Positions 365 to 12,670 of a stretch of DNA of 22,338 nt are shown in pieces; position 1 is the first letter of the stretch; each line of letters opens with the position of its first letter. The DNA is from a virus: the UHGV virus genome UHGV-0785299; one strand, given 5' to 3'. The position numbers and the translations under genes are program-made. The notes under the pieces are model-generated. The model had not been told where the DNA came from, ran no database searches, and saw only the letters and a list, made by a program, of their open reading frames with translations.

Positions 365-718
365 TTACGACAGCTGCTTCAGTTTGTAGATCGTCTGATA
401 GCACAGTGTCTTGATATCGTCAAGAGTGCTCTGAAGGTGGGAGTCACACTGCTTGTAGATACCATCGACGTCTATCACCACACTGTTAATATAGGAGATA
501 GGGTCTGGGTTGTACAATTTGATATTCTCGAATGATGGAACATACTGACCACCCGCACCGATGTATGCTTCGGTAAACGTGTCCAGCAAGTCCTCTAGAT
601 CCCCGTAGAACTCCCCGAGTGCCTTGTGCTTGGCATAGGACGTTGTAACGAAGTGCAAGGCATGAGAGTGGGCTATAGCAAGCAGTCCACGGTTGATGAA
701 AATACTCGCATTGACCAT
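365..718 (-). CDS. hypothetical protein (weak ferritin/Dps-like helical pattern)
   Basis: ORF 365..778; preferred start is the internal ATG at 718 (MVNASIFINRG...) which has a GAGGA RBS 8 nt upstream and clears the upstream terminator hairpin. Segment LLAIAHSHALHFVTTSYAKHKALGEFYGDLEDLLDTFTE loosely resembles Dps-type helices; very tentative. Confidence 0.5.
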   Translation of the reverse strand: MVNASIFINRGLLAIAHSHALHFVTTSYAKHKALGEFYGDLEDLLDTFTEAYIGAGGQYVPSFENIKLYNPDPISYINSVVIDVDGIYKQCDSHLQSTLDDIKTLCYQTIYKLKQLS

Positions 719-812: not shown

Positions 813-1382
813 TTAGACAGGCTTAACACCGAGGAACTTGGCAATGTCAGCAGCCAGGTTTTTACCCTTGCTGATATCATGCTCCTTGCCGTTGCAGGTG
901 ACGATCACATACGGGTCATCTTCACCACCGAAGTTCACGGTGATCGTCTTGCCGATGCCAGGGATGCCAGAGTATTCGAACTCAGTACGACCACTCTTGC
1001 GAGACTTGCCAGCACCCAGTGCTTTGCCGATCATCTTGTCCATGTTCGCCAGTTCCTGAACATAGGATTCGGTCACCTGGCCTTTGTCGGCAGACTTGCC
1101 AAAGAAGAATTCGAAGCCGTCATAGACAGCAACGACTTCCTGACCTTGGGAGATACCGTGAGTCTGATCCGGAGTCAGCTTCACCTTGATGGTGTTGCCA
1201 TTGGTTAACTCCAGGTTATATACATCCGCCTGATTGTCAGGAGTGATCTGGGTCACGGTAGCGCCAGAGCACCACTGGGTGCCGTCAGCTTGCTTGGTGA
1301 TGGATACGGTCTTACCCTGGACACCAGCATGGGTCTGAGGTTTAGCGGCTTGTTCTTTAAAATATTCGATAAACGGTTTCAT
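813..1382 (-). CDS. candidate packaged internal head protein (T4 capsid-targeting-sequence-like N-terminus)
   Basis: 189-aa ORF; N-terminus MKPFIEYFKEQ resembles the T4 internal-protein capsid targeting sequence (MKTYQEFIAE type, recalled from memory); GAGGAG RBS 7 nt upstream of ATG; perfect late-promoter box 26 nt upstream. Confidence 0.5.
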   Translation of the reverse strand: MKPFIEYFKEQAAKPQTHAGVQGKTVSITKQADGTQWCSGATVTQITPDNQADVYNLELTNGNTIKVKLTPDQTHGISQGQEVVAVYDGFEFFFGKSADKGQVTESYVQELANMDKMIGKALGAGKSRKSGRTEFEYSGIPGIGKTITVNFGGEDDPYVIVTCNGKEHDISKGKNLAADIAKFLGVKPV

Positions 1383-1407
1383 CTTAATCTCCTCGGGGAT
1401 TTCAGTT

Positions 1408-1415
1408 ATTTATAA
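1408..1415 (-). promoter_or_regulatory. T4-type late promoter box TATAAATA (reads on minus strand)
   Basis: Plus-strand TATTTATA at 1408-1415 is TATAAATA on the minus strand, about 26 nt upstream of the ATG at 1382; a gp55-like late sigma gene is present in the same window. Confidence 0.55.
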
Positions 1416-1430
1416 GCCCCGAAGGGCTTC
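1415..1430 (-). other. short hairpin (AAGCCC/GGGCTT stem, 4-nt loop) between the 1025-aa gene stop and the late promoter
   Basis: Perfect 6-bp inverted repeat; no U-tract follows on either strand, so more likely an RNA stability or processing element than an intrinsic terminator. Confidence 0.3.
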
Positions 1431-1435
1431 GATGA

Positions 1436-4400
1436 TCAGATCTTAATCTGCATGTTTCCACCCAGGGACTGCTCATACTCGCTGTATGCACTTTCCCCGT
1501 TGTCTTGCGACCACTGGTCAGACTGTTGGGCACGAGCCAGGGTCATCAGGTTTGGTTCAGTCGGGTTGTAGCCCTTGGACTTCGCATCCCGGTACAGAGT
1601 CTGCAGGTACTGGTTGGCGCGGTCAATCTGAGCTTTGAACTCTCGATATGCCCCTTCAGTTGTGTTGCGGCGGAAGGTGATATCCCAGTCCACGTTCAGA
1701 GTCTGCCCATCACGGCTTGCATAGATCTGCCAATCCAGGTCGCGACCTTTTGGTGCGTTGTCTCGGATGGAGTCGGCGTATGCCGCAAGGTCGGCACCAG
1801 TCTTCTTCGCAGTACTCGACTCTTTCTCCAGTCTCTCGGTTTCTTTGGATAGGATACCCAACATAAAATCATTAGTGCGGCGATCCGCCATGTCGTACCC
1901 GCGCCAAAGGACTGAACCGTTGTTGTCAACAGAAATGTCGTCCAAAAATACTTGTTTCGGATTATACGACGTGCTTTTCAGAGTTTGCATATTCCGAGAT
2001 ATCATTTCCATATTAGAAGAAATTTCATCGATCACGGCCTGAACAATATCTTTCTTCAAAGTAAGTTCATATGTCTTCGGATTGTTCAGGGTACGACCTT
2101 TATTGGATACCATAGGCGTGATCGCCACTTTGCCTTTGTCGTAGTAATAGGTCACATTCGTGGTCAATACAGCACCATCATACTTCCCAGTTTTCGGGAA
2201 ATTGACGCCAGACCAAGTGATGGACATACCGTTGACAGTCTCACCAAACACCATGGCGTTGCGTGGCATCTTCAGGGTTCCAGAGTTGACCAGATCATCG
2301 CCTTGGGCATTCAGGTCGATAGAACCATAGATGGTCCCGGTGATACGATCTTTCAGCATCAGGGTCTTGTCGCCTTTCTCTGGGATGATTTCCAGTGGGT
2401 GCTTGCCACGCGGAGGCTCTTTGATGAGTTCCAGCAGAGCAGTGTTCCCTGGCTTCACACGATTCAGGACAGCGTCGGACACTGTCAGAGTCCAGTTTGC
2501 GGTTTCCACATAACCCCAGCCCCGAGAACGGCGAATGGCTTTGATAGGATATGGAGCGCTTGTTGGCACTGCGCTAATTTCCCATTTGCCAGTGTACTGG
2601 GTCTTGGCAACCTCAAAGATGGACGCAATTACCGCATTGGCGACGTCACGGGCGCTACCTTTGGCCACGTTCTCCTCTTCAGCAATTTCGCTGAAAACTG
2701 AGTATTGAACGAAACCAGCGAGGACGTTTGTGAAGTTGACAACGATAACCAACCCGCCTGCCGTCGTGTAACGACCAGCGCCCACACGACGGATGTTCTC
2801 ACCAGGAAGAATAGAAGTGTCCAGCCCAACGTTGGTATCAATGATACCCAGAACACGAGCGATGAAACCGCTGTCGCGTAATTGATCAACACTGGTTGCA
2901 CCCTCGGTCGAATCCGATGCGGATTTAGACACTTTGTTCAACTTGATAGAGACAAGGGTTTCCCCGTTGACACCGATGATATCCCATTCAGTACCCTGCT
3001 CGTTCGAGATGCGGGCAATCTTGCGCTTTGAATTGATGGCACCTTCGTAACGCCCGTTCTTGACTACAACAGAGGCTGTGGCAGCATCAGTAGCACTTGC
3101 TGCATTTGAAAAGTCTGGGTCAGAAATACTGATATCGACGTCACCGTTTTGAGAACGCATGCGAACACCGTTTTTGAATCGTTCCACGTTTACTTCTCGA
3201 GCACCAAGTCGTTTGGCATCAATAACAGCAGTTCCAGAACCGATAATATTGGCTGGGTTATTTCTGTCTGAACTGTTTTGAGAACCTTTCCAAAATTTTG
3301 TGGACGCCGTGGTGAAATCATTCAGGATACTGATAGGGACTTGTGGTAATTTCAACTGACGAGCAATGAAATCAGCACTTTGCCCACGCACAGGTTTCTC
3401 ATTCATGTATGCGCCAACATACACGCCCGGCTCATTGTAGTGGGGAGCGATATTTGCCGTGTTCATGCGGCCTCTCTCCTTACCAGCCCATAACAACATG
3501 GGCTGATCCCCGTTTGAAGTTAATTTCCATCCGTTGGAATTATCAACAGAAGATGAAGAACCAGCCCCGGTTCCCAAGTTTGTTTTTCTGGAATCTTCTA
3601 CGTTTAGATTGAACAATTGTTTCCCAGATGAGTCGGAAGCAATAAATTCATATTTCTTGCCACTGCGGGTACTCGTGCTGTTAACTTTGATGTTTCCAGT
3701 GTATCTTCCTGGATTCGTTTTTTGCATGAAATTGGTAATTGCAGCAGAAGGGGTTTTCATCCCAGAAATGATTCTAGCTGTCTCGGGATCAGTGAAAGAC
3801 ACTACGAGTTTGCGCCCATCCATCACTGTGATATCATTTCCAGACACCGAAATATCCAAGTCTTCCATTTCAGAACGGAAATCAACACCAACAACAATGG
3901 TTTGACCAGTTCCACCCACAACGCCATCAACGCTGTTCTGAACCGGAACGTCACCGACCTTGTCTGGATCATCCCAGGTGATACCCTGCATCTTCGGACC
4001 GTCGAATACCTGAGCCGGATCTTTACCCTTGCGGACCAGCCACACATAACCACGGTCAGGGACAGGCGCGTAGGTCAGGTCCATGACATTCAGTTTCTGT
4101 TTCAGGCCGGACTGGCGGATGATCTTAGGAATCAGGGTCATACCGCGATCCAGCGCTTTCTTAGAGAAGTTGACAGCAAAGCCATCGATGGTCTTGCCCA
4201 GAGGAGTCGCCATGAATTGTTTGGTCGCTTCGATCATGGAAGCGATAACGCGCATTGGGTTCTTGAAGCGAGCGATGGCGTCAGGATAGACGGAGCCGCG
4301 CTTCTGGCCGATGAAAACCTGACGAACGCTCTTGCCCAGCCCCTGAGGGGTATAGAACTGAATACGGTATTCCTTTTCATCTTCGTCGATGAAGGTGAAG

Positions 4401-4513
4401 AACACATCGCCTGCGTTCTTCTTACCCATGGTCAGCTCATACGGAGCGGAGTTGAACGCTTCGTCCAACTGATCTCTTTCCTGCATGAACTGGAGGAAAC
4501 TTAGCTTTGACAT
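1436..4513 (-). CDS. large hypothetical protein, 1025 aa; possibly a virion-packaged protein
   Basis: Uninterrupted 3078-nt ORF; GGGAGA RBS 7 nt upstream of ATG at 4513; Gly/Ser/Thr/Asn-rich central region; no nucleotide-binding or catalytic motif recognised. Functional guess rests on context (immediately upstream of the late-promoter/CTS-like gene) and a loose resemblance of the N-terminal ~150 aa to the T4 Alt N-terminal region, recalled from memory. Confidence 0.7.
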   Translation of the reverse strand: MSKLSFLQFMQERDQLDEAFNSAPYELTMGKKNAGDVFFTFIDEDEKEYRIQFYTPQGLGKSVRQVFIGQKRGSVYPDAIARFKNPMRVIASMIEATKQFMATPLGKTIDGFAVNFSKKALDRGMTLIPKIIRQSGLKQKLNVMDLTYAPVPDRGYVWLVRKGKDPAQVFDGPKMQGITWDDPDKVGDVPVQNSVDGVVGGTGQTIVVGVDFRSEMEDLDISVSGNDITVMDGRKLVVSFTDPETARIISGMKTPSAAITNFMQKTNPGRYTGNIKVNSTSTRSGKKYEFIASDSSGKQLFNLNVEDSRKTNLGTGAGSSSSVDNSNGWKLTSNGDQPMLLWAGKERGRMNTANIAPHYNEPGVYVGAYMNEKPVRGQSADFIARQLKLPQVPISILNDFTTASTKFWKGSQNSSDRNNPANIIGSGTAVIDAKRLGAREVNVERFKNGVRMRSQNGDVDISISDPDFSNAASATDAATASVVVKNGRYEGAINSKRKIARISNEQGTEWDIIGVNGETLVSIKLNKVSKSASDSTEGATSVDQLRDSGFIARVLGIIDTNVGLDTSILPGENIRRVGAGRYTTAGGLVIVVNFTNVLAGFVQYSVFSEIAEEENVAKGSARDVANAVIASIFEVAKTQYTGKWEISAVPTSAPYPIKAIRRSRGWGYVETANWTLTVSDAVLNRVKPGNTALLELIKEPPRGKHPLEIIPEKGDKTLMLKDRITGTIYGSIDLNAQGDDLVNSGTLKMPRNAMVFGETVNGMSITWSGVNFPKTGKYDGAVLTTNVTYYYDKGKVAITPMVSNKGRTLNNPKTYELTLKKDIVQAVIDEISSNMEMISRNMQTLKSTSYNPKQVFLDDISVDNNGSVLWRGYDMADRRTNDFMLGILSKETERLEKESSTAKKTGADLAAYADSIRDNAPKGRDLDWQIYASRDGQTLNVDWDITFRRNTTEGAYREFKAQIDRANQYLQTLYRDAKSKGYNPTEPNLMTLARAQQSDQWSQDNGESAYSEYEQSLGGNMQIKI

Positions 4514-4556: not shown

Positions 4557-4586
4557 GCGAAACCAAAAGGGAGCGTCAGCCCCCTT
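4557..4586 (-). terminator. weak terminator-like hairpin with U-tract on minus strand
   Basis: AAGGG (4567-4571) / CCCTT (4582-4586) stem with 10-nt loop, followed on the minus strand by TTTTGGTTTCG; lies between the 4590..4925 gene stop and the 1025-aa gene start. Confidence 0.3.
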
Positions 4587-5031: not shown

Positions 5032-5667
5032 TTACGGCGTTGTAACCACCGGGATATGAGACCGGATTCCAGCGATGATGTCCTTCAGCTGAGGCTTCCA
5101 TCCATCCACCAAACGGGGTAGAGCGATAGCACCAGGCTGAACTAAAATGATGTCGCTGCCTGTGATATTGTGCTGAGGGAACTGGGCAAGGTACTGCTCC
5201 ATGGTGACACCCTCATCAATCAGAACCGCACCGACGTCAGACGATGCGTAGGTTGCACCCAGACCGTCAACACCCCATGCCAAGATGCCCCAGTCAGGGA
5301 TGTTGGCTTCGGATGTGATGGTGAATCCAAACACGGTGTTCAGGGAGGTGAAGGAATAGACATCGTGAGTTATGTCATACACCAGATACCCCTTGGCCAG
5401 CATATCGGCAAAGATCGCGTCCGTATCGCCAGCAGCCGGAGTCGGTACAGTAAACAACAGCTCGCCATCAGGAGGAGCAGGATACGTGCCGAGGGCATAG
5501 AGGCACCACGCATCTATGCACTTCTTAATGAACGCCTCGGGCGCGACATAATCAGCAAGGCGAACCGTACCTGAGTACTCGGATACGATGATGCCTTCCT
5601 TCGCACCCTGTAGAGCAATGAAGACCAAGATATGTTCATATCCGGCCTGAGATGGAGTGATGTTCAT
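5032..5667 (-). CDS. hypothetical protein (212 aa)
   Basis: ORF 5032..5763; preferred start ATG at 5667 (MNITPSQAGYEH...) overlapping the stop of the upstream gene by 1 nt (TAATG), suggesting translational coupling; no motif recognised. Confidence 0.6.
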   Translation of the reverse strand: MNITPSQAGYEHILVFIALQGAKEGIIVSEYSGTVRLADYVAPEAFIKKCIDAWCLYALGTYPAPPDGELLFTVPTPAAGDTDAIFADMLAKGYLVYDITHDVYSFTSLNTVFGFTITSEANIPDWGILAWGVDGLGATYASSDVGAVLIDEGVTMEQYLAQFPQHNITGSDIILVQPGAIALPRLVDGWKPQLKDIIAGIRSHIPVVTTP

Positions 5668-6281
5668 TATCTTGTCCTCTTCAGTTTCTCTATTGTGTGC
5701 TTGTTCATGGCGATCACCTGAGGATCTACCTCGGAGATGGTCCGGCCTTCGAAGGACACACATTTCTGAAGATATTTAGCTTTCTTCACGACGTCGGCAG
5801 CATAAGCGTTCGATGCGGGATTACGGGCGAAGCCAGCATTGTAAGAGGAGAGGGATTTGCGGATATTCTGATTGTGATAGGTCAGCCAGAACTGCATCTC
5901 ATCGAGGGCGGCTTGCGCGGCATATTCTTGGTCGGTCAGCAACTTTATGGCGACATTGGCATAGCACTTGCGATTCTTACAACCTTCGCGATCACCAACT
6001 GTCTTCACCTTGTTCTGAAAGGCTCCCATGTTGGCCGCCTTGAGGCCGTATCGCATTGACACTACATCTTCGCCAGCGCGGCTCTCACGCCAAGATATGG
6101 CGGCCAGAGTGTAGCCAAGATCTTGTGTCTTGCCCACGTGATAGGCGGTTGCCATCGTATTAAGTTGTTGCTCGGAGAAATTATAAACACATTGACTTGT
6201 ATTTTGGGAAGCGTGCACATTCCCGCTGGCAATGGTAAAGGTCACGGACAAGGCCATGGCCTTCAACGTTGTCATCGTCAT
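5667..6281 (-). CDS. secreted lysozyme-like / lytic transglycosylase-like protein
   Basis: 204-aa ORF with N-terminal signal-peptide-like segment MTMTTLKAMALSVTFTIASGNVHA; SWRESRAGED and YNAGFARNP segments resemble SLT-domain catalytic-Glu and YNAG motifs; AAGGAA RBS upstream of ATG 6281. Confidence 0.5.
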   Translation of the reverse strand: MTMTTLKAMALSVTFTIASGNVHASQNTSQCVYNFSEQQLNTMATAYHVGKTQDLGYTLAAISWRESRAGEDVVSMRYGLKAANMGAFQNKVKTVGDREGCKNRKCYANVAIKLLTDQEYAAQAALDEMQFWLTYHNQNIRKSLSSYNAGFARNPASNAYAADVVKKAKYLQKCVSFEGRTISEVDPQVIAMNKHTIEKLKRTR

Positions 6282-6337: not shown

Positions 6338-6373
6338 TTAAAAGATAAAGGGCACGTGGTATTTAGTGCCCTT
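6338..6373 (-). terminator. intrinsic terminator-like hairpin (8-bp stem AAGGGCAC/GTGCCCTT) with TATCTTTTAA tract on minus strand
   Basis: Perfect inverted repeat 6348-6355/6366-6373 with 10-nt loop, immediately downstream of the stop at 6379. Confidence 0.45.
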
Positions 6374-9482: not shown

Positions 9483-10590
9483 CCAGTTTGTTCAGGCGTT
9501 GTTGGGCAGCATTATAGAAGTGCTCTGCTAGTTTACAGACATTGTCGGGGCGCTGAATGTTGTTCCCGGCGCGGATATCCTTCTTCAGGACTTCCACCGC
9601 ATCGGTCGCCACCATCTCTTCGGTGACCTCAACCTTCTCGGCAGCAACAGTAATCGTCCGGTCGATGAAGTTATAGTCAATACACTTGCATCGCTTCATC
9701 GCATCACAGAACTTTTCATAATGCTTAGCATTGTCGCGGTTCTGTACAATAACCTTAACGATTTGCCCTTCAATACCCAAGCCTGTGTTCAACCATTCCG
9801 GGTCGATCCAATTGCCTTCTTCATCAGAGGACAACTTGGTGTAATCATATTCCACATAGCGGAACAGCGTCTGATTCTCGGCGTTTGGGATAAAGATCTC
9901 ACCACCACGCATGTCGTCCACATAGAAGCCACGGTTGGTGCCGTCTTTGTAGTCTTCCCAGTTCAGGTGATACGGAGTCCCAATATATTGAATGTTACCT
10001 TCCATCGAACGGGTATGGAAATGGCCCGTGTCGACCCTGGTAAACTTGGAAAGCAGCGCAACGTCGATCTGACCGTGATCACAAGTAGAAGACTGGTACA
10101 TTTTGAACCCCGCCAGCTCCAGATGCGCAAAACAGTACTCGGCGTCTGTATCTTGTATCGCTTTAATAGACGCATCATAGTTCTCCTTGTTGATCCAAGG
10201 CAGCAGCAGAGTCTTGACACCCTCGATCATCACTTCGGTTGGTTCGCTGTAATAGCAGTACACATCCGGGTCGAGTTCGTTCAGGTAGGATGGCCAGTTG
10301 ATGCGGTTGGACTCTTCCAGGGTGATGTCATGGTTGCCCACGATGCCATTCCACTTGATACCAGCCGCTTTCAGCGCTGGAGTTAATTCATCCTTCAGCC
10401 AGTCTTTGTCGCGCCCGTACATGAATTTGCGGACATCAAACATATCACCGAACTGCCAGACCTCTTTGATATCAGAGTCGGCAAGTTCAGGAATGAAATA
10501 ATTGATGAGATAGTTCTTGATGAAGTCGCGAACGTATCGAGAACCATTACGGCTCCCGATATGCAGATCACCAATTTTAGCAATCGCCAT
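9475..10590 (-). CDS. Mre11/SbcD-family nuclease (T4 gp47-like)
   Basis: 371 aa; calcineurin-like phosphoesterase motifs GDLHIG, GDMFD, GNHD, GHFH in canonical order; immediately upstream of and overlapping the Rad50-like gene, as in T4 genes 47-46. Confidence 0.9.
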   Translation of the reverse strand: MAIAKIGDLHIGSRNGSRYVRDFIKNYLINYFIPELADSDIKEVWQFGDMFDVRKFMYGRDKDWLKDELTPALKAAGIKWNGIVGNHDITLEESNRINWPSYLNELDPDVYCYYSEPTEVMIEGVKTLLLPWINKENYDASIKAIQDTDAEYCFAHLELAGFKMYQSSTCDHGQIDVALLSKFTRVDTGHFHTRSMEGNIQYIGTPYHLNWEDYKDGTNRGFYVDDMRGGEIFIPNAENQTLFRYVEYDYTKLSSDEEGNWIDPEWLNTGLGIEGQIVKVIVQNRDNAKHYEKFCDAMKRCKCIDYNFIDRTITVAAEKVEVTEEMVATDAVEVLKKDIRAGNNIQRPDNVCKLAEHFYNAAQQRLNKLDA

Positions 10591-11318
10591 TATTCTGTTT
10601 CTCCTTCGGTTTCATCTAGTCCGAATTGGGTTTTGCCGAAGTCCTGATCTGAATTGTCTTCGGCCTGCGCTGTTACCGTATTCTTAGCCTGCGCCATGTA
10701 TTGAAGTATGCCTTTCGCAATCTTTTTATTCGATTCTGCGAGACGAGCTGCCTCCACCTTCTCTCGCTCCTTCTGCCTTTGAGCGTCCTTTTTGTTCTCA
10801 AAGTTGCCGATACGTTCACGGAAGTCCATGCCAATTCCTGTAGCATCAACAAAGACCTCTTGTTGGAAGTCGGGATCGTCTGCCAGGCCTGCGAACCCAC
10901 CCGCCTCTTCAAATGAGCGCAATTTAATGTACGTGTGCTCTTCTTCGATGTTCAGTTTACGAGCAAATGATCGATCAGCACACATGGTCACCCAAGAGAA
11001 GAAGTTGATCTTCCCTTTCTTTCCAATGTGTTCGACGTCAAATGTGTGGAGGTAGCGCAGGATATTGACTATTGCTTCAGAGACCATGTCTTCACGGAAG
11101 GGATAGTCGCGATAGTTGTAGCGGGTGCTCATCTTGGTGATGATGCGCTGGACCTGTAGAGCAACATAGTTGGGGATCTTTGGAAGCCTGGTGCCTTCAG
11201 CCAGAGCCTTCTTACGAGCAGGGATCCAATCACGAAGGATACTGATGACACGCTCGTTATCTTCGTCTGTGAAATATTTGACGACATTCTCCCCTCTGTC
11301 CACGAAGTTCATTCCCAT
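10590..11318 (-). CDS. late-transcription sigma factor (T4 gp55-like) with acidic C-terminal extension
   Basis: 242 aa; position directly upstream of the 47/46-like pair matches T4-like gene order; N-terminal half (ISILRDW..., RYNYRDY, ...LHTFD) resembles T4 gp55 from memory; perfect TATAAATA boxes occur in the window; GAGGGA RBS; 1-nt stop/start overlap with the gp47-like gene. Confidence 0.55.
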   Translation of the reverse strand: MGMNFVDRGENVVKYFTDEDNERVISILRDWIPARKKALAEGTRLPKIPNYVALQVQRIITKMSTRYNYRDYPFREDMVSEAIVNILRYLHTFDVEHIGKKGKINFFSWVTMCADRSFARKLNIEEEHTYIKLRSFEEAGGFAGLADDPDFQQEVFVDATGIGMDFRERIGNFENKKDAQRQKEREKVEAARLAESNKKIAKGILQYMAQAKNTVTAQAEDNSDQDFGKTQFGLDETEGETE

Positions 11319-11859: not shown

Positions 11860-11867
11860 TATAAATA
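11860..11867 (+). promoter_or_regulatory. T4-type late promoter box TATAAATA (plus strand)
   Basis: Exact TATAAATA at 11860-11867, 35 nt upstream of ATG 11903 with AGAGGA RBS in between; directly abuts the RNase HI start codon on the opposite strand. Confidence 0.55.
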
Positions 11868-11902: not shown

Positions 11903-12670
11903 ATGGCACCCCGCGCATATCGTTTCAGTCTCACCGCCCCGCAGATTGAGCAATTGCTCCTCTCTATCTATGATGCTATCAAGTCAGAAGATATCATCTA
12001 TGATTATGCTGCAGGTGGGACTGCTGGACAAGTCGCAGCAGCGTCTGCTGTCAAGAACATGTGGTTGAAGCTCAACGAGATGGTGACAGGCCAAGGTCTC
12101 AAAGATGCCATCAACGATGCAGAAGACAGCAACGTGTTCACCGACTATTATAAGTCTTTACTGGATCGCGAAGGTTGGAAATTTATTGGATCTCCAGCAG
12201 ATGAACTTCAGCGAGGCGACATCGATACCTCGAACTTCAAAGGTGGTGAGGTCATTCTACTTCAGAAGAACGCTTCGGGCAACCCAGAATTCCAATACTG
12301 GAAGCGAACCCCTGTTGCTGGGGGTGATCCTACCTTTGCATGGGCTTCGGTCTATGAAGGGAACTCTAATGATTCCAGCATAGAGATTCCCGTGGTTGGC
12401 ACCAGCGTACTCAAGGACATCCCCAAGGCACTCTTCCATATGATCGAGTTCAGAGTGCATGTCTACGATGAGACACTGGGTCATTGGCAAGACACCGACG
12501 GGAAGGTGGGGTATCGTGGCGAGGATCTGATCTACAGTGTATACAACCATATTCAGACCAAACCTCTCGCCACCATTGACTTCAGCCAAGATACGGACAA
12601 TATGACGGTTTCTGTGACGTCGTTGGAACCGAATGTCAAGTGCCATCTGTCCTTCGTTGCGGGTTACTAA
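11903..12670 (+). CDS. hypothetical late protein (255 aa), possibly structural
   Basis: ORF 11744..12670; preferred start ATG 11903 (MAPRAYRFSLTAPQ...) because it follows the late-promoter box and RBS and avoids overlap with RNase HI coding sequence; stop overlaps the stop of the convergent helicase gene (CTAA); no motif recognised. Confidence 0.6.
   Translation: MAPRAYRFSLTAPQIEQLLLSIYDAIKSEDIIYDYAAGGTAGQVAAASAVKNMWLKLNEMVTGQGLKDAINDAEDSNVFTDYYKSLLDREGWKFIGSPADELQRGDIDTSNFKGGEVILLQKNASGNPEFQYWKRTPVAGGDPTFAWASVYEGNSNDSSIEIPVVGTSVLKDIPKALFHMIEFRVHVYDETLGHWQDTDGKVGYRGEDLIYSVYNHIQTKPLATIDFSQDTDNMTVSVTSLEPNVKCHLSFVAGY

What the first reader, a model, noticed from the sequence alone, without database searches (positions are those of the whole stretch)
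813..4513. Late-promoter unit: 1025-aa protein followed by a small protein with a capsid-targeting-like N-terminus
A perfect TATAAATA box sits 26 nt upstream of a 189-aa gene whose N-terminus (MKPFIEYFKEQ) resembles the T4 internal-protein capsid targeting sequence. Immediately upstream is a 1025-aa protein with no recognisable enzymatic motif, a Gly/Ser/Thr/Asn-rich central region and an N-terminus that loosely resembles the T4 Alt N-terminal region. Proteins packaged in the head and injected with the DNA are a known route for anti-restriction and host-modifying effectors in T4, so both are candidates for injected effectors of unknown activity.
Basis: partly seen in the sequence, partly recalled or inferred. 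Interest (0 to 1): 0.6.

Follow-up and report, generated by a model that had tools for sequence, protein, structure and literature searches.

The report
Alt-like head-packaged proteins, no enzyme domain
Two neighbouring genes of a ViI-like (Ackermannviridae) phage encode particle proteins carrying the same N-terminal tags that phage T4 uses to load proteins into its head for injection with the DNA, but their cargo domains match nothing known.

Summary
Both ORFs lie on the minus strand: 1025 aa at 1436-4513 and 189 aa at 813-1382. An exact TATAAATA (1407-1414) ends 24 nt before the small gene's ATG.

The window is an Agtrevirus-like Ackermannviridae phage. Published particle proteomics of three relatives (Sajous1, LIMEstone1, ViI) detected orthologues of both proteins, and the large one was abundant.

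The first ~190 residues of the large protein are homologous to the N-terminal domain of T4 Alt, the head-packaged, injected ADP-ribosyltransferase (profile-profile E=1e-8). The nearly invariant L-x-E|A site aligns with Alt's known prohead-protease cleavage site. This domain heads about 70 protein clusters with unrelated C-termini, three of them Alt-type ADP-ribosyltransferases. The window protein has no such enzyme domain. It has optional ~100-aa modules and a conserved, unannotated C-terminal domain.

The 189-aa protein starts MKPFIEYFKE, against T4's capsid targeting sequence MKTYQEFIAE. Several small proteins of these phages share that signature.

My reading is that both are loaded into the prohead core, trimmed by the protease and ejected into the host. 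Head location, cleavage, ejection and activity are inferred, not shown. I rate this a new variant of a known kind.

The parts
1436..4513 (-). Gene for the 1025-aa particle protein: Alt-type N-terminal domain, variable modules, then a conserved C-terminal domain
   Evidence: ORF and translation. PHROG 3867, function unknown. Orthologue of Sajous1 gp214, LIMEstone1 ORF082+081, Vi01_094c and CBA120 orf111.
4460..4513 (-). Codons 1-18, predicted propeptide MSKLSFLQFMQERDQLDE, ending at the predicted prohead-protease site L-D-E|A
   Evidence: L16 and E18 are invariant in 42 family members. E18 is nearly invariant in the wider 65-member family. E18 aligns with T4 Alt Glu6, after which 6 residues are removed (record X15811). 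Cleavage in this phage is inferred.
3944..4459 (-). Residues 19-190, Alt-type N-terminal domain, the putative head-core docking module
   Evidence: hhalign against the Alt N-terminal family gives E=1e-8 over 160 columns, with controls. Mean identity is 95% across 41 homologues. The domain sits at the N-terminus of about 70 clusters of proteins of 279-1302 aa.
2936..3919 (-). Residues 199-526, variable Gly/Ser/Thr/Asn-rich region of three ~100-aa modules (199-317, 318-426, 427-526) that come and go among close relatives
   Evidence: BLAST coverage map. The modules are present in 21, 23 and 12 of 41 homologues. AlphaFold models each as a beta-rich unit at pLDDT 65-83.
1814..2935 (-). Residues 527-900, alpha/beta core region with no recognisable fold match
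1439..1738 (-). Residues 926-1025, conserved C-terminal domain (TFRRNT ... NGxSAYSEYEQSxGG)
   Evidence: Found alone, mostly at the C-terminus, in about 60 clusters of largely small proteins. No Pfam family and no PDB relative.
4567..4586 (-). Terminator-like hairpin upstream of the large gene
   Evidence: Consensus scan only.
1414..1429 (-). Hairpin AAGCCC-TTCG-GGGCTT just after the large gene's stop codon, abutting the promoter box
   Evidence: Read from the sequence. The same arrangement is present in LIMEstone1.
1407..1414 (-). Exact T4-type late promoter box TATAAATA for the small gene
   Evidence: A late promoter is annotated at the same place in LIMEstone1. By position against the AV101 annotation, the window also carries the gp55 late sigma factor gene, as ORF 10590-11318.
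813..1382 (-). Gene for the 189-aa particle protein, an internal-protein-like candidate
   Evidence: PHROG 4048, function unknown. 84% identical to Sajous1 gp215. LIMEstone1 ORF080 is a confirmed structural protein.
1353..1382 (-). Codons 1-10, MKPFIEYFKE, the sequence resembling the capsid targeting sequence
   Evidence: M1, F4 and E10 are invariant and K2 is nearly invariant in 31 family members. T4 ipII and ipIII begin MKTYQEFIAE.
1068..1070 (-). Codon for Glu105 (V-T-E|S), an invariant module boundary and possible second protease site
   Evidence: E105 is invariant, and three different C-terminal modules follow it in homologues. Cleavage is speculative.

Best explanation
Both genes encode proteins that are built into the phage head interior and leave it with the DNA.

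The 1025-aa protein carries the same N-terminal domain as T4 Alt. By analogy, this domain docks the protein into the scaffolding core of the prohead. The gp21-type prohead protease then removes an 18-residue propeptide at L-D-E|A. A ~110-kDa basic protein (pI ~9) stays in the head in tens of copies and is ejected into the cell at infection. Its cargo is not an ADP-ribosyltransferase. The cargo is a string of optional ~100-aa modules, an alpha/beta core and a conserved C-terminal domain, all without known relatives. I think a binding role early in infection is most likely: host takeover, counter-defence or protection of the incoming DNA.

The 189-aa protein is made from its own late promoter. 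It is targeted by a 10-residue T4-type capsid targeting sequence (MKPFIEYFKE|Q) and behaves like a T4 internal protein.

Shown: particle association of the orthologues, homology to the Alt N-terminal domain, the conserved site, and the promoter sequence.
Inferred: head-interior location, cleavage, ejection, and function.
For: 1. Particle proteomics of orthologues. Sajous1 gp214 gave 196 spectra, the fifth most represented protein, and gp215 gave 32. LIMEstone1 ORF081 had 55% coverage and 23 peptides; ORF082 and ORF080 were also confirmed. Vi01_093c and Vi01_094c are labelled 'phage associated protein'.

2. Alt homology. The N-domain profile against the Alt N-terminal family gives hhalign probability 95.7%, E=1e-8, residues 14-176 against Alt 2-177. 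Reversed and shuffled controls score E>=0.004. hmmsearch against T4 Alt alone gives p=2.7e-4.

3. Shared architecture. Three N-domain family members (P0236, P0245, P0227) carry PF03496, the Alt catalytic domain.

4. Cleavage site. E18 aligns with Alt Glu6, where T4 removes 6 residues. T4's gp21 trims gpAlt, which is present at ~40 copies in the prohead core (PMC9958956). Nearly all 65 members of the wider family show hydrophobic-x-E followed by (A/S)F(N/D)xxPY after a variable leader.

5. Constraint pattern. The N-domain is 95% identical across genera, while the cargo modules are swapped or lost.

6. Targeting signature of the small protein. It matches T4 ipII/ipIII. In LIMEstone1 the best-scoring genuine gene starts against the T4 sequence are five small proteins. 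One is ORF173, a confirmed particle protein that is an ART-PolyVal ADP-ribosyltransferase.

7. Late promoter. The two exact TATAAATA boxes in the window both precede particle-protein genes.
Against: - No experiment places either protein inside the head rather than on the tail, neck or capsid surface.
- No peptide-level data were available to confirm the predicted mature N-termini. The Sajous1 supplement is truncated.
- The genes sit among replication genes, and the large gene has no recognisable late promoter.
- In AlphaFold the N-domain is modelled poorly (pLDDT ~50), so the fold adds no support.
- The residue three places before the cut in the small protein's site (F-K-E) is Phe, not the Leu/Ile of the T4 consensus.
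- The targeting motif was partly defined after seeing the data.
- Spectral counts are only a rough guide to copy number.
Confidence: 0.72

Rival explanations
1. The large protein is an external structural part of the particle, such as a tail completion or terminator protein, a neck or whisker component, or a capsid decoration with variable display domains. The small protein would be an accessory of that structure.
Confidence: 0.13
2. The Alt-type domain is a relic, and the proteins are packaged passively or are co-purifying contaminants. Their real role would be intracellular, in replication or nucleotide metabolism, as the neighbouring genes suggest.
For: Both genes are flanked by primase, gp46/47, RNase H and helicase genes on the same strand. 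LIMEstone1 particles also gave low-level hits to rIIB, ligase, PhoH and gp44.
Against: The large protein is among the most represented particle proteins in two studies (196 spectra; 55% coverage with 23 peptides), unlike the contaminants, which had under 5% coverage. Orthologues were detected in three phage genera. An exact late promoter precedes the small gene. A relic domain would not be held at 95% identity across genera.
Confidence: 0.05
3. The gene cluster is an iron or molybdate 'ferrojan horse' entry system on the tail, as Harris et al. proposed. In that model the small protein is a molybdate-binding protein and its downstream neighbour is a ferritin.
For: The small protein gives a weak Pfam TOBE hit (E=0.0074, 16.9 bits) and a Phyre BiMOP match in the paper. 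The downstream 117-aa protein is Dps/ferritin-like, DUF5856, and is also found in particles.
Confidence: 0.03

Closest known systems
Bacteriophage T4 Alt (gpAlt), the head-packaged, injected RNA polymerase ADP-ribosyltransferase
   Same: The ~165-residue N-terminal domain is homologous (E=1e-8). A hydrophobic-x-E protease site lies at the start of the domain and aligns with the site where T4 removes 6 residues. Both are large proteins found in particles.
   Different: The window protein has no PF03496 catalytic domain or any other ADP-ribosyltransferase signature. Its propeptide is 18 residues, not 6. Its cargo consists of unannotated, modular, highly variable domains. Pfam's Alt N-terminal family PF26846 was not recorded for any Ackermannviridae homologue.
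T4 internal proteins IPII and IPIII with the 10-residue capsid targeting sequence
   Same: The 189-aa protein begins MKPFIEYFKE, against MKTYQEFIAE: 4 identities and 3 conservative changes, ending in Glu. It is small, late-expressed and detected in particles. As in T4, where vs.1 and regB lie near ipII/ipIII, the locus lies near Vs.1-like and RegB-like genes.
   Different: The residue three places before the cut is Phe rather than Ile. The mature part has no detected similarity to anything. The family shows alternative C-terminal modules after an invariant V-T-E. Targeting and cleavage are untested.
LIMEstone1 ORF173, an ART-PolyVal ADP-ribosyltransferase found in the particle
   Same: It comes from the same phage family, has the same type of N-terminal signature (MKTFLQYLQE), has an annotated late promoter and is a confirmed particle protein.
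   Different: It has a recognisable enzyme domain (PF18760, E=5e-12). The window's two proteins have none. It lies outside the region covered by this window.
Ejection protein sets of giant phages such as SPN3US and phiKZ
   Same: These are multiple head-internal proteins trimmed by a prohead protease at x-x-E sites and delivered into the host (PMC5694885, listed; the detail here is from my own knowledge).
   Different: No sequence relationship was found. Those phages use different propeptides and a different site consensus.

Membership tests
T4 Alt-like ADP-ribosyltransferases | N-terminal Alt domain (~residues 2-177 of T4 Alt) | tested here: met
   Profile-profile hhalign probability 95.7%, E=1e-8, 160 columns. 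Controls score E>=0.004.
T4 Alt-like ADP-ribosyltransferases | Prohead-protease site (hydrophobic-x-E) at the start of the domain | tested here: met
   L16-D17-E18|A19 is conserved and aligns with Alt I4-T5-E6|L7. Removal of 6 residues in T4 is noted in record X15811. This is a sequence-level result only.
T4 Alt-like ADP-ribosyltransferases | ADP-ribosyltransferase catalytic domain (Pfam PF03496) | tested here: not met
   No Pfam hit at E<=1. T4 Alt scores E=5.8e-36 and three N-domain relatives score 1e-18 to 3e-9 in the same library.
T4 Alt-like ADP-ribosyltransferases | Packaged in the head and injected with the DNA | not testable with these tools
   Particle association of orthologues is published. 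Head-interior location and injection are unknown.
T4 internal proteins with a capsid targeting sequence | N-terminal ~10-residue targeting sequence ending in Glu | tested here: met
   MKPFIEYFKE against MKTYQEFIAE. M1, F4 and E10 are invariant in 31 homologues. It is the top genuine gene start in the window when scored against the T4 sequence.
T4 internal proteins with a capsid targeting sequence | Targeting to the prohead core and cleavage by the prohead protease | not testable with these tools
   This needs N-terminal mapping of particle proteins or a reporter fusion.
T4 internal proteins with a capsid targeting sequence | Small, late-expressed protein present in the particle | tested here: met
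   189 aa, with an exact TATAAATA ending 24 nt upstream. Orthologues are in the Sajous1 and LIMEstone1 particles.
Tail completion / tail terminator proteins (the label in some records) | Sequence or fold homology to gp3, gp15 or tail terminator proteins | tested here: not met
TOBE/MOP molybdate-binding domain (small protein) | Pfam PF03459 above the gathering score | tested here: not met
T4-type late promoter | TATAAATA a short distance upstream of the gene, in a phage with gp55 and gp33 | tested here: met
   Exact box at 1407-1414. gp55 and gp33 homologues are annotated in the near-identical phage AV101. Promoter activity was not tested.

The most novel reading that the evidence does not exclude
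The Alt N-terminal domain may be a widespread, portable module for loading a protein into the head and injecting it. It heads about 70 clusters (at 50% identity) of proteins of 279-1302 aa from phages of enterobacteria, Vibrio, Ralstonia and unsampled hosts, with many unrelated cargoes. T4 Alt would be only the one characterised case. In Ackermannviridae the module would deliver an abundant, non-enzymatic cargo whose parts are shuffled between close relatives. That pattern fits a previously unrecognised class of injected counter-defence or host-takeover proteins in an arms race with the host. Together with the small targeting-sequence proteins, one of them an ART-PolyVal enzyme, this would mean that ViI-like phages carry a diverse injected protein arsenal that has gone unnoticed.
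Probability: 0.35. Interest if true: 0.75.

Novelty: new variant of a known kind. Interest (0 to 1): 0.58.

Why it matters
[quoted passage not shown] The only defined signal it describes is the 10-residue targeting sequence of the internal proteins.

This work shows that Alt's ~170-residue N-terminal region is a discrete domain. It is conserved far beyond the T4-like phages and is fused to many different cargoes. That gives a concrete, testable candidate for a second packaging signal.

Ackermannviridae are widely used for biocontrol and detection. For them, the result corrects a propagated mis-annotation ('tail completion protein'). It also flags an abundant, variable protein and a set of small tagged proteins that probably enter the host cell first, where they could influence host range and resistance to bacterial defences. 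Either tag could also serve to load foreign proteins into these phages.

Tried and rejected
- Internal repeats: self-BLAST of the large protein found none, although modules 199-317 and 427-526 look alike by eye.
- First Alt comparisons: a full-length family profile against T4 Alt alone gave nothing in the N-domain. With little sequence diversity the test was only suggestive (E=0.73; Smith-Waterman z ~2.6). It became significant only after both families were broadened.
- PDB sequence and profile searches: none gave a relative for Alt, the N-domain family or the C-terminal domain family.
- Shared module between the two proteins: rejected (E=0.47).
- Peptide-level check of the predicted mature N-termini in the Sajous1 data: the stored supplement is truncated and lacks these proteins.
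- Sources I could not use: the ViI proteomics paper (Pickard 2010) is not held, so the meaning of the label 'phage associated protein' is my inference. Pfam PF26846, the Alt N-terminal family, is absent from the local Pfam copy. A word-indexed search with the Alt N-terminus returned only 5 proteins, so I took Alt relatives from phage records instead.
- Late promoter for the large gene: none found with TATAAATA or YTAAATA.
Full report
**What is in the sequence**

Both ORFs are real and lie on the minus strand. The 1025-aa ORF is at 1436-4513 and the 189-aa ORF is at 813-1382.

Between them the minus strand carries three features in order:
- a short hairpin, AAGCCC-TTCG-GGGCTT
- an exact TATAAATA at 1407-1414
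- a GAGGAG ribosome-binding site

The box ends 24 nt before the ATG. TATAAATA occurs only twice in the 22.3-kb window, against 0.23 expected by chance. The second copy (11860-11867, plus strand) precedes the orthologue of LIMEstone1 ORF093, a confirmed particle protein. The box can serve only the small gene. I found no comparable box upstream of the large gene, only a terminator-like hairpin at 4567-4586.

**Origin of the window**

The region is 96-97% identical to Agtrevirus-like Ackermannviridae phages such as vB_CECAV_050 and AV101. In AV101 the two genes are annotated as hypothetical. They sit on the same strand as the primase, gp46/47, gp55, RNase H and helicase genes.

**Published evidence that both proteins are in the particle**

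- *Sajous1.* Harris et al. 2024 (PMC10892097) analysed CsCl-purified Kuttervirus Sajous1. They report gp214 with 196 spectra, among the five most represented proteins, and gp215 with 32 spectra. From the Sajous1 record, gp214 (795 aa) is the orthologue of the 1025-aa protein and gp215 is 84% identical to the 189-aa protein.
- *LIMEstone1.* In Adriaenssens et al. 2012 (PMC3296691), ORF081 (55% coverage, 23 peptides), ORF082 and ORF080 are confirmed structural proteins. ORF082 and ORF081 are a frameshift-split orthologue of the large protein.
- *Vi01.* The record labels the two orthologues 'phage associated protein'. This probably derives from the 2010 ViI proteome, which I could not read.

Particle association is therefore already known. 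Location within the particle and function are not. Harris et al. call gp214 a 'tail completion protein' and propose an iron or molybdate entry operon. Their assignments do not fit the record: the protein they call a helicase is 79 aa long.

**Architecture of the large protein**

It has no Pfam family and no PDB relative. Its relatives range from about 560 to 1208 aa. A coverage map and a 42-sequence alignment show the following:

| Region (residues) | Present in | Mean identity |
|---|---|---|
| N-terminal domain, 1-198 | 41 of 41 | 95% (minimum 84%) |
| Module 199-317 | 21 of 41 | 70% |
| Module 318-426 | 23 of 41 | 88% |
| Module 427-526 | 12 of 41 | 93% |
| Core 527-900 | 39 of 41 | 75% |
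| C-terminal domain 926-1025 | 30 of 41 | 84% |

The optional modules can differ between phages whose N-domains are nearly identical. Residues 199-540 are 37% Gly/Ser/Thr/Asn, against 20% in the N-domain.

**The N-domain is the Alt N-terminal domain**

An exhaustive profile search of 1.84 billion representative proteins found 145 significant proteins, which separate into two independent modules:
- The N-domain sits at the N-terminus of about 70 clusters of proteins of 279-1302 aa with unrelated remainders.
- The last ~100 residues occur, mostly at the C-terminus, in about 60 clusters of largely small proteins.

Three N-domain proteins (P0236, P0245, P0227) carry Pfam PF03496, the catalytic domain of T4 Alt. 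Their catalytic domains align with T4 Alt at BLAST E-values from 2e-14 to 4e-6.

The N-domain family profile against T4 Alt alone gave hmmsearch p=2.7e-4 and hhalign E=0.015. Against a profile of ten Alt N-termini from diverse Straboviridae it gave probability 95.7% and E=1e-8. The alignment is collinear over 160 columns, residues 14-176 against Alt 2-177. Reversed and column-shuffled controls scored E>=0.004.

In that alignment L16-D17-E18|A19-F20 matches Alt I4-T5-E6|L7-F8. The T4 alt record states that 6 residues are cleaved off. A T4 head review states that gp21 trims gpAlt, which is present at ~40 copies in the scaffolding core (PMC9958956). E18 is invariant in the Ackermannviridae family and nearly invariant in the wider one. 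Nearly every member shows a variable leader followed by hydrophobic-x-E and then (A/S)F(N/D)xxPY.

**The rest of the large protein**

**The small protein**

- *Family conservation.* In its 31-member family M1, F4 and E10 are invariant and K2 is nearly so.
- *Resemblance to T4.* T4 ipII and ipIII begin MKTYQEFIAE. The 189-aa protein begins MKPFIEYFKE.
- *Ranking of start sites.* I scored every Met-initiated ORF start against the T4 sequence. In the window the 189-aa protein shares the second-highest score. The other two top-scoring starts are Met codons internal to larger genes.
- *The same test in LIMEstone1.* The top genuine gene starts are five small proteins: ORF173, ORF007, ORF079, ORF167 and ORF080. 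ORF173 is a confirmed particle protein and an ART-PolyVal ADP-ribosyltransferase (PF18760, E=5e-12). The Sajous1 orthologue of ORF079 gave 20 spectra.
- *Modular C-terminus.* E105 (V-T-E) is also invariant, and three alternative C-terminal modules follow it in homologues. It is a module boundary and possibly a second cleavage site.

**Interpretation**

The best explanation is that both proteins are loaded into the prohead core. The large one would use an Alt-type domain and the small one a T4-type targeting sequence. Both would be trimmed by the gp21-type protease encoded in these phages, kept in the head with the DNA, and ejected at infection.

The large protein is not a member of the Alt enzyme family, because the catalytic domain is absent. 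It belongs to a wider family defined by the Alt N-domain. Its conserved tag combined with a shuffled cargo suggests a binding protein that acts on the host, but that remains inference.

**Novelty**

I found no paper describing internal or ejected head proteins of Ackermannviridae. A 2024 review of the family does not mention the topic. There is no solved structure of Alt or of either new domain.

I rate this a new variant of a known kind, of moderate to good interest. The main value is the definition of a portable Alt-type packaging domain and the correction of a mis-annotation.

Noticed in passing
L008:13190-13648 (LIMEstone1 ORF173; outside this window): A 152-aa confirmed particle protein begins MKTFLQYLQE, which resembles the T4 targeting sequence. 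It is an ART-PolyVal ADP-ribosyltransferase (PF18760, E=5e-12) with a CTAAATA late-promoter-like box upstream. It looks like a small injected ADP-ribosyltransferase delivered by a targeting sequence rather than an Alt-type domain.
   Followed up: partly
window 365-718 (-): The 117-aa gene just downstream of the small gene is DUF5856. It is labelled 'starvation-inducible transcriptional regulator' in Vi01, CBA120 and LIMEstone1, and Harris et al. call it a ferritin. Its orthologues were detected in LIMEstone1 and Sajous1 particles, so it may be a Dps-like protein packaged with the DNA. A TTAAATA lies inside a hairpin at 743-760.
   Followed up: partly
window 5032-5670 (-), with CTAAATA at 5773-5779: This is the orthologue of LIMEstone1 ORF085 and Vi01_096c (DUF7270, 212 aa), another confirmed particle protein of unknown role. 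One database protein (P0213) starts like this protein and ends with the large protein's C-terminal domain.
   Followed up: partly
window 11903-12670 (+), TATAAATA at 11860-11867: This is the only plus-strand gene in a long minus-strand replication block. It has the window's other exact late promoter box. Its LIMEstone1 orthologue (ORF093, 255 aa) is a confirmed particle protein with no Pfam family.
   Followed up: partly
window 1439-1738 (-) and alignment A4: The last ~100 residues of the large protein (TFRRNT ... NGxSAYSEYEQSxGG, then a short beta strand) form an independent, unannotated domain. It occurs in about 60 clusters of mostly small proteins. Some begin with a Cys-rich MK..EMAAKK.C.KCGK motif.
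   Followed up: partly
alignment A2 (homologues of window 813-1382): After the invariant V-T-E105 the family has three alternative C-terminal modules. One ends ...KLGLPKIPDNLLKSFF, which resembles a motif in module 318-426 of the large protein (KLPQVPISILNDFT). Another resembles the separate 79-aa protein (Sajous1 gp216), and P0147 contains such a segment at its C-terminal end. The 79-aa gene is absent from this window.
   Followed up: partly
L005:7416-9012 (LIMEstone1 ORF081/ORF082): The LIMEstone1 orthologue of the large protein is annotated as two overlapping ORFs. The N-domain frame breaks near residue 100. This is a sequencing error, a pseudogene or a frameshift. Both parts were detected in particles. 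The joined protein would be only ~540 aa and would lack most of the core region.
   Followed up: partly
L018 (T4 62000-68000) compared with L001 and L002: In T4 the internal protein genes ipII and ipIII lie near vs.1 and regB. In Ackermannviridae the tagged particle-protein genes lie next to genes annotated Vs.1-like and RegB-like. This may be a remnant of shared gene order.
   Followed up: no
window 5667-6281 (-), with CTAAATA at 6360-6366: This 204-aa protein has a signal-peptide-like N-terminus. Its LIMEstone1 orthologue gives a weak SLT transglycosylase hit (E=3.7e-4, just below the cut-off). It is annotated 'Vs.1 conserved hypothetical protein' in AV101.
   Followed up: no
L007:28023-28328 (LIMEstone1 ORF141, prohead core protein): Its N-terminus, MEIEEVATFADFLASRMDE|QK, shares the aromatic-x-x-aromatic-Leu/Met pattern followed by hydrophobic-x-E that is seen in the large protein's leader (SFLQFMQE...LDE). 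This hints at a common leader logic for core proteins.
   Followed up: no
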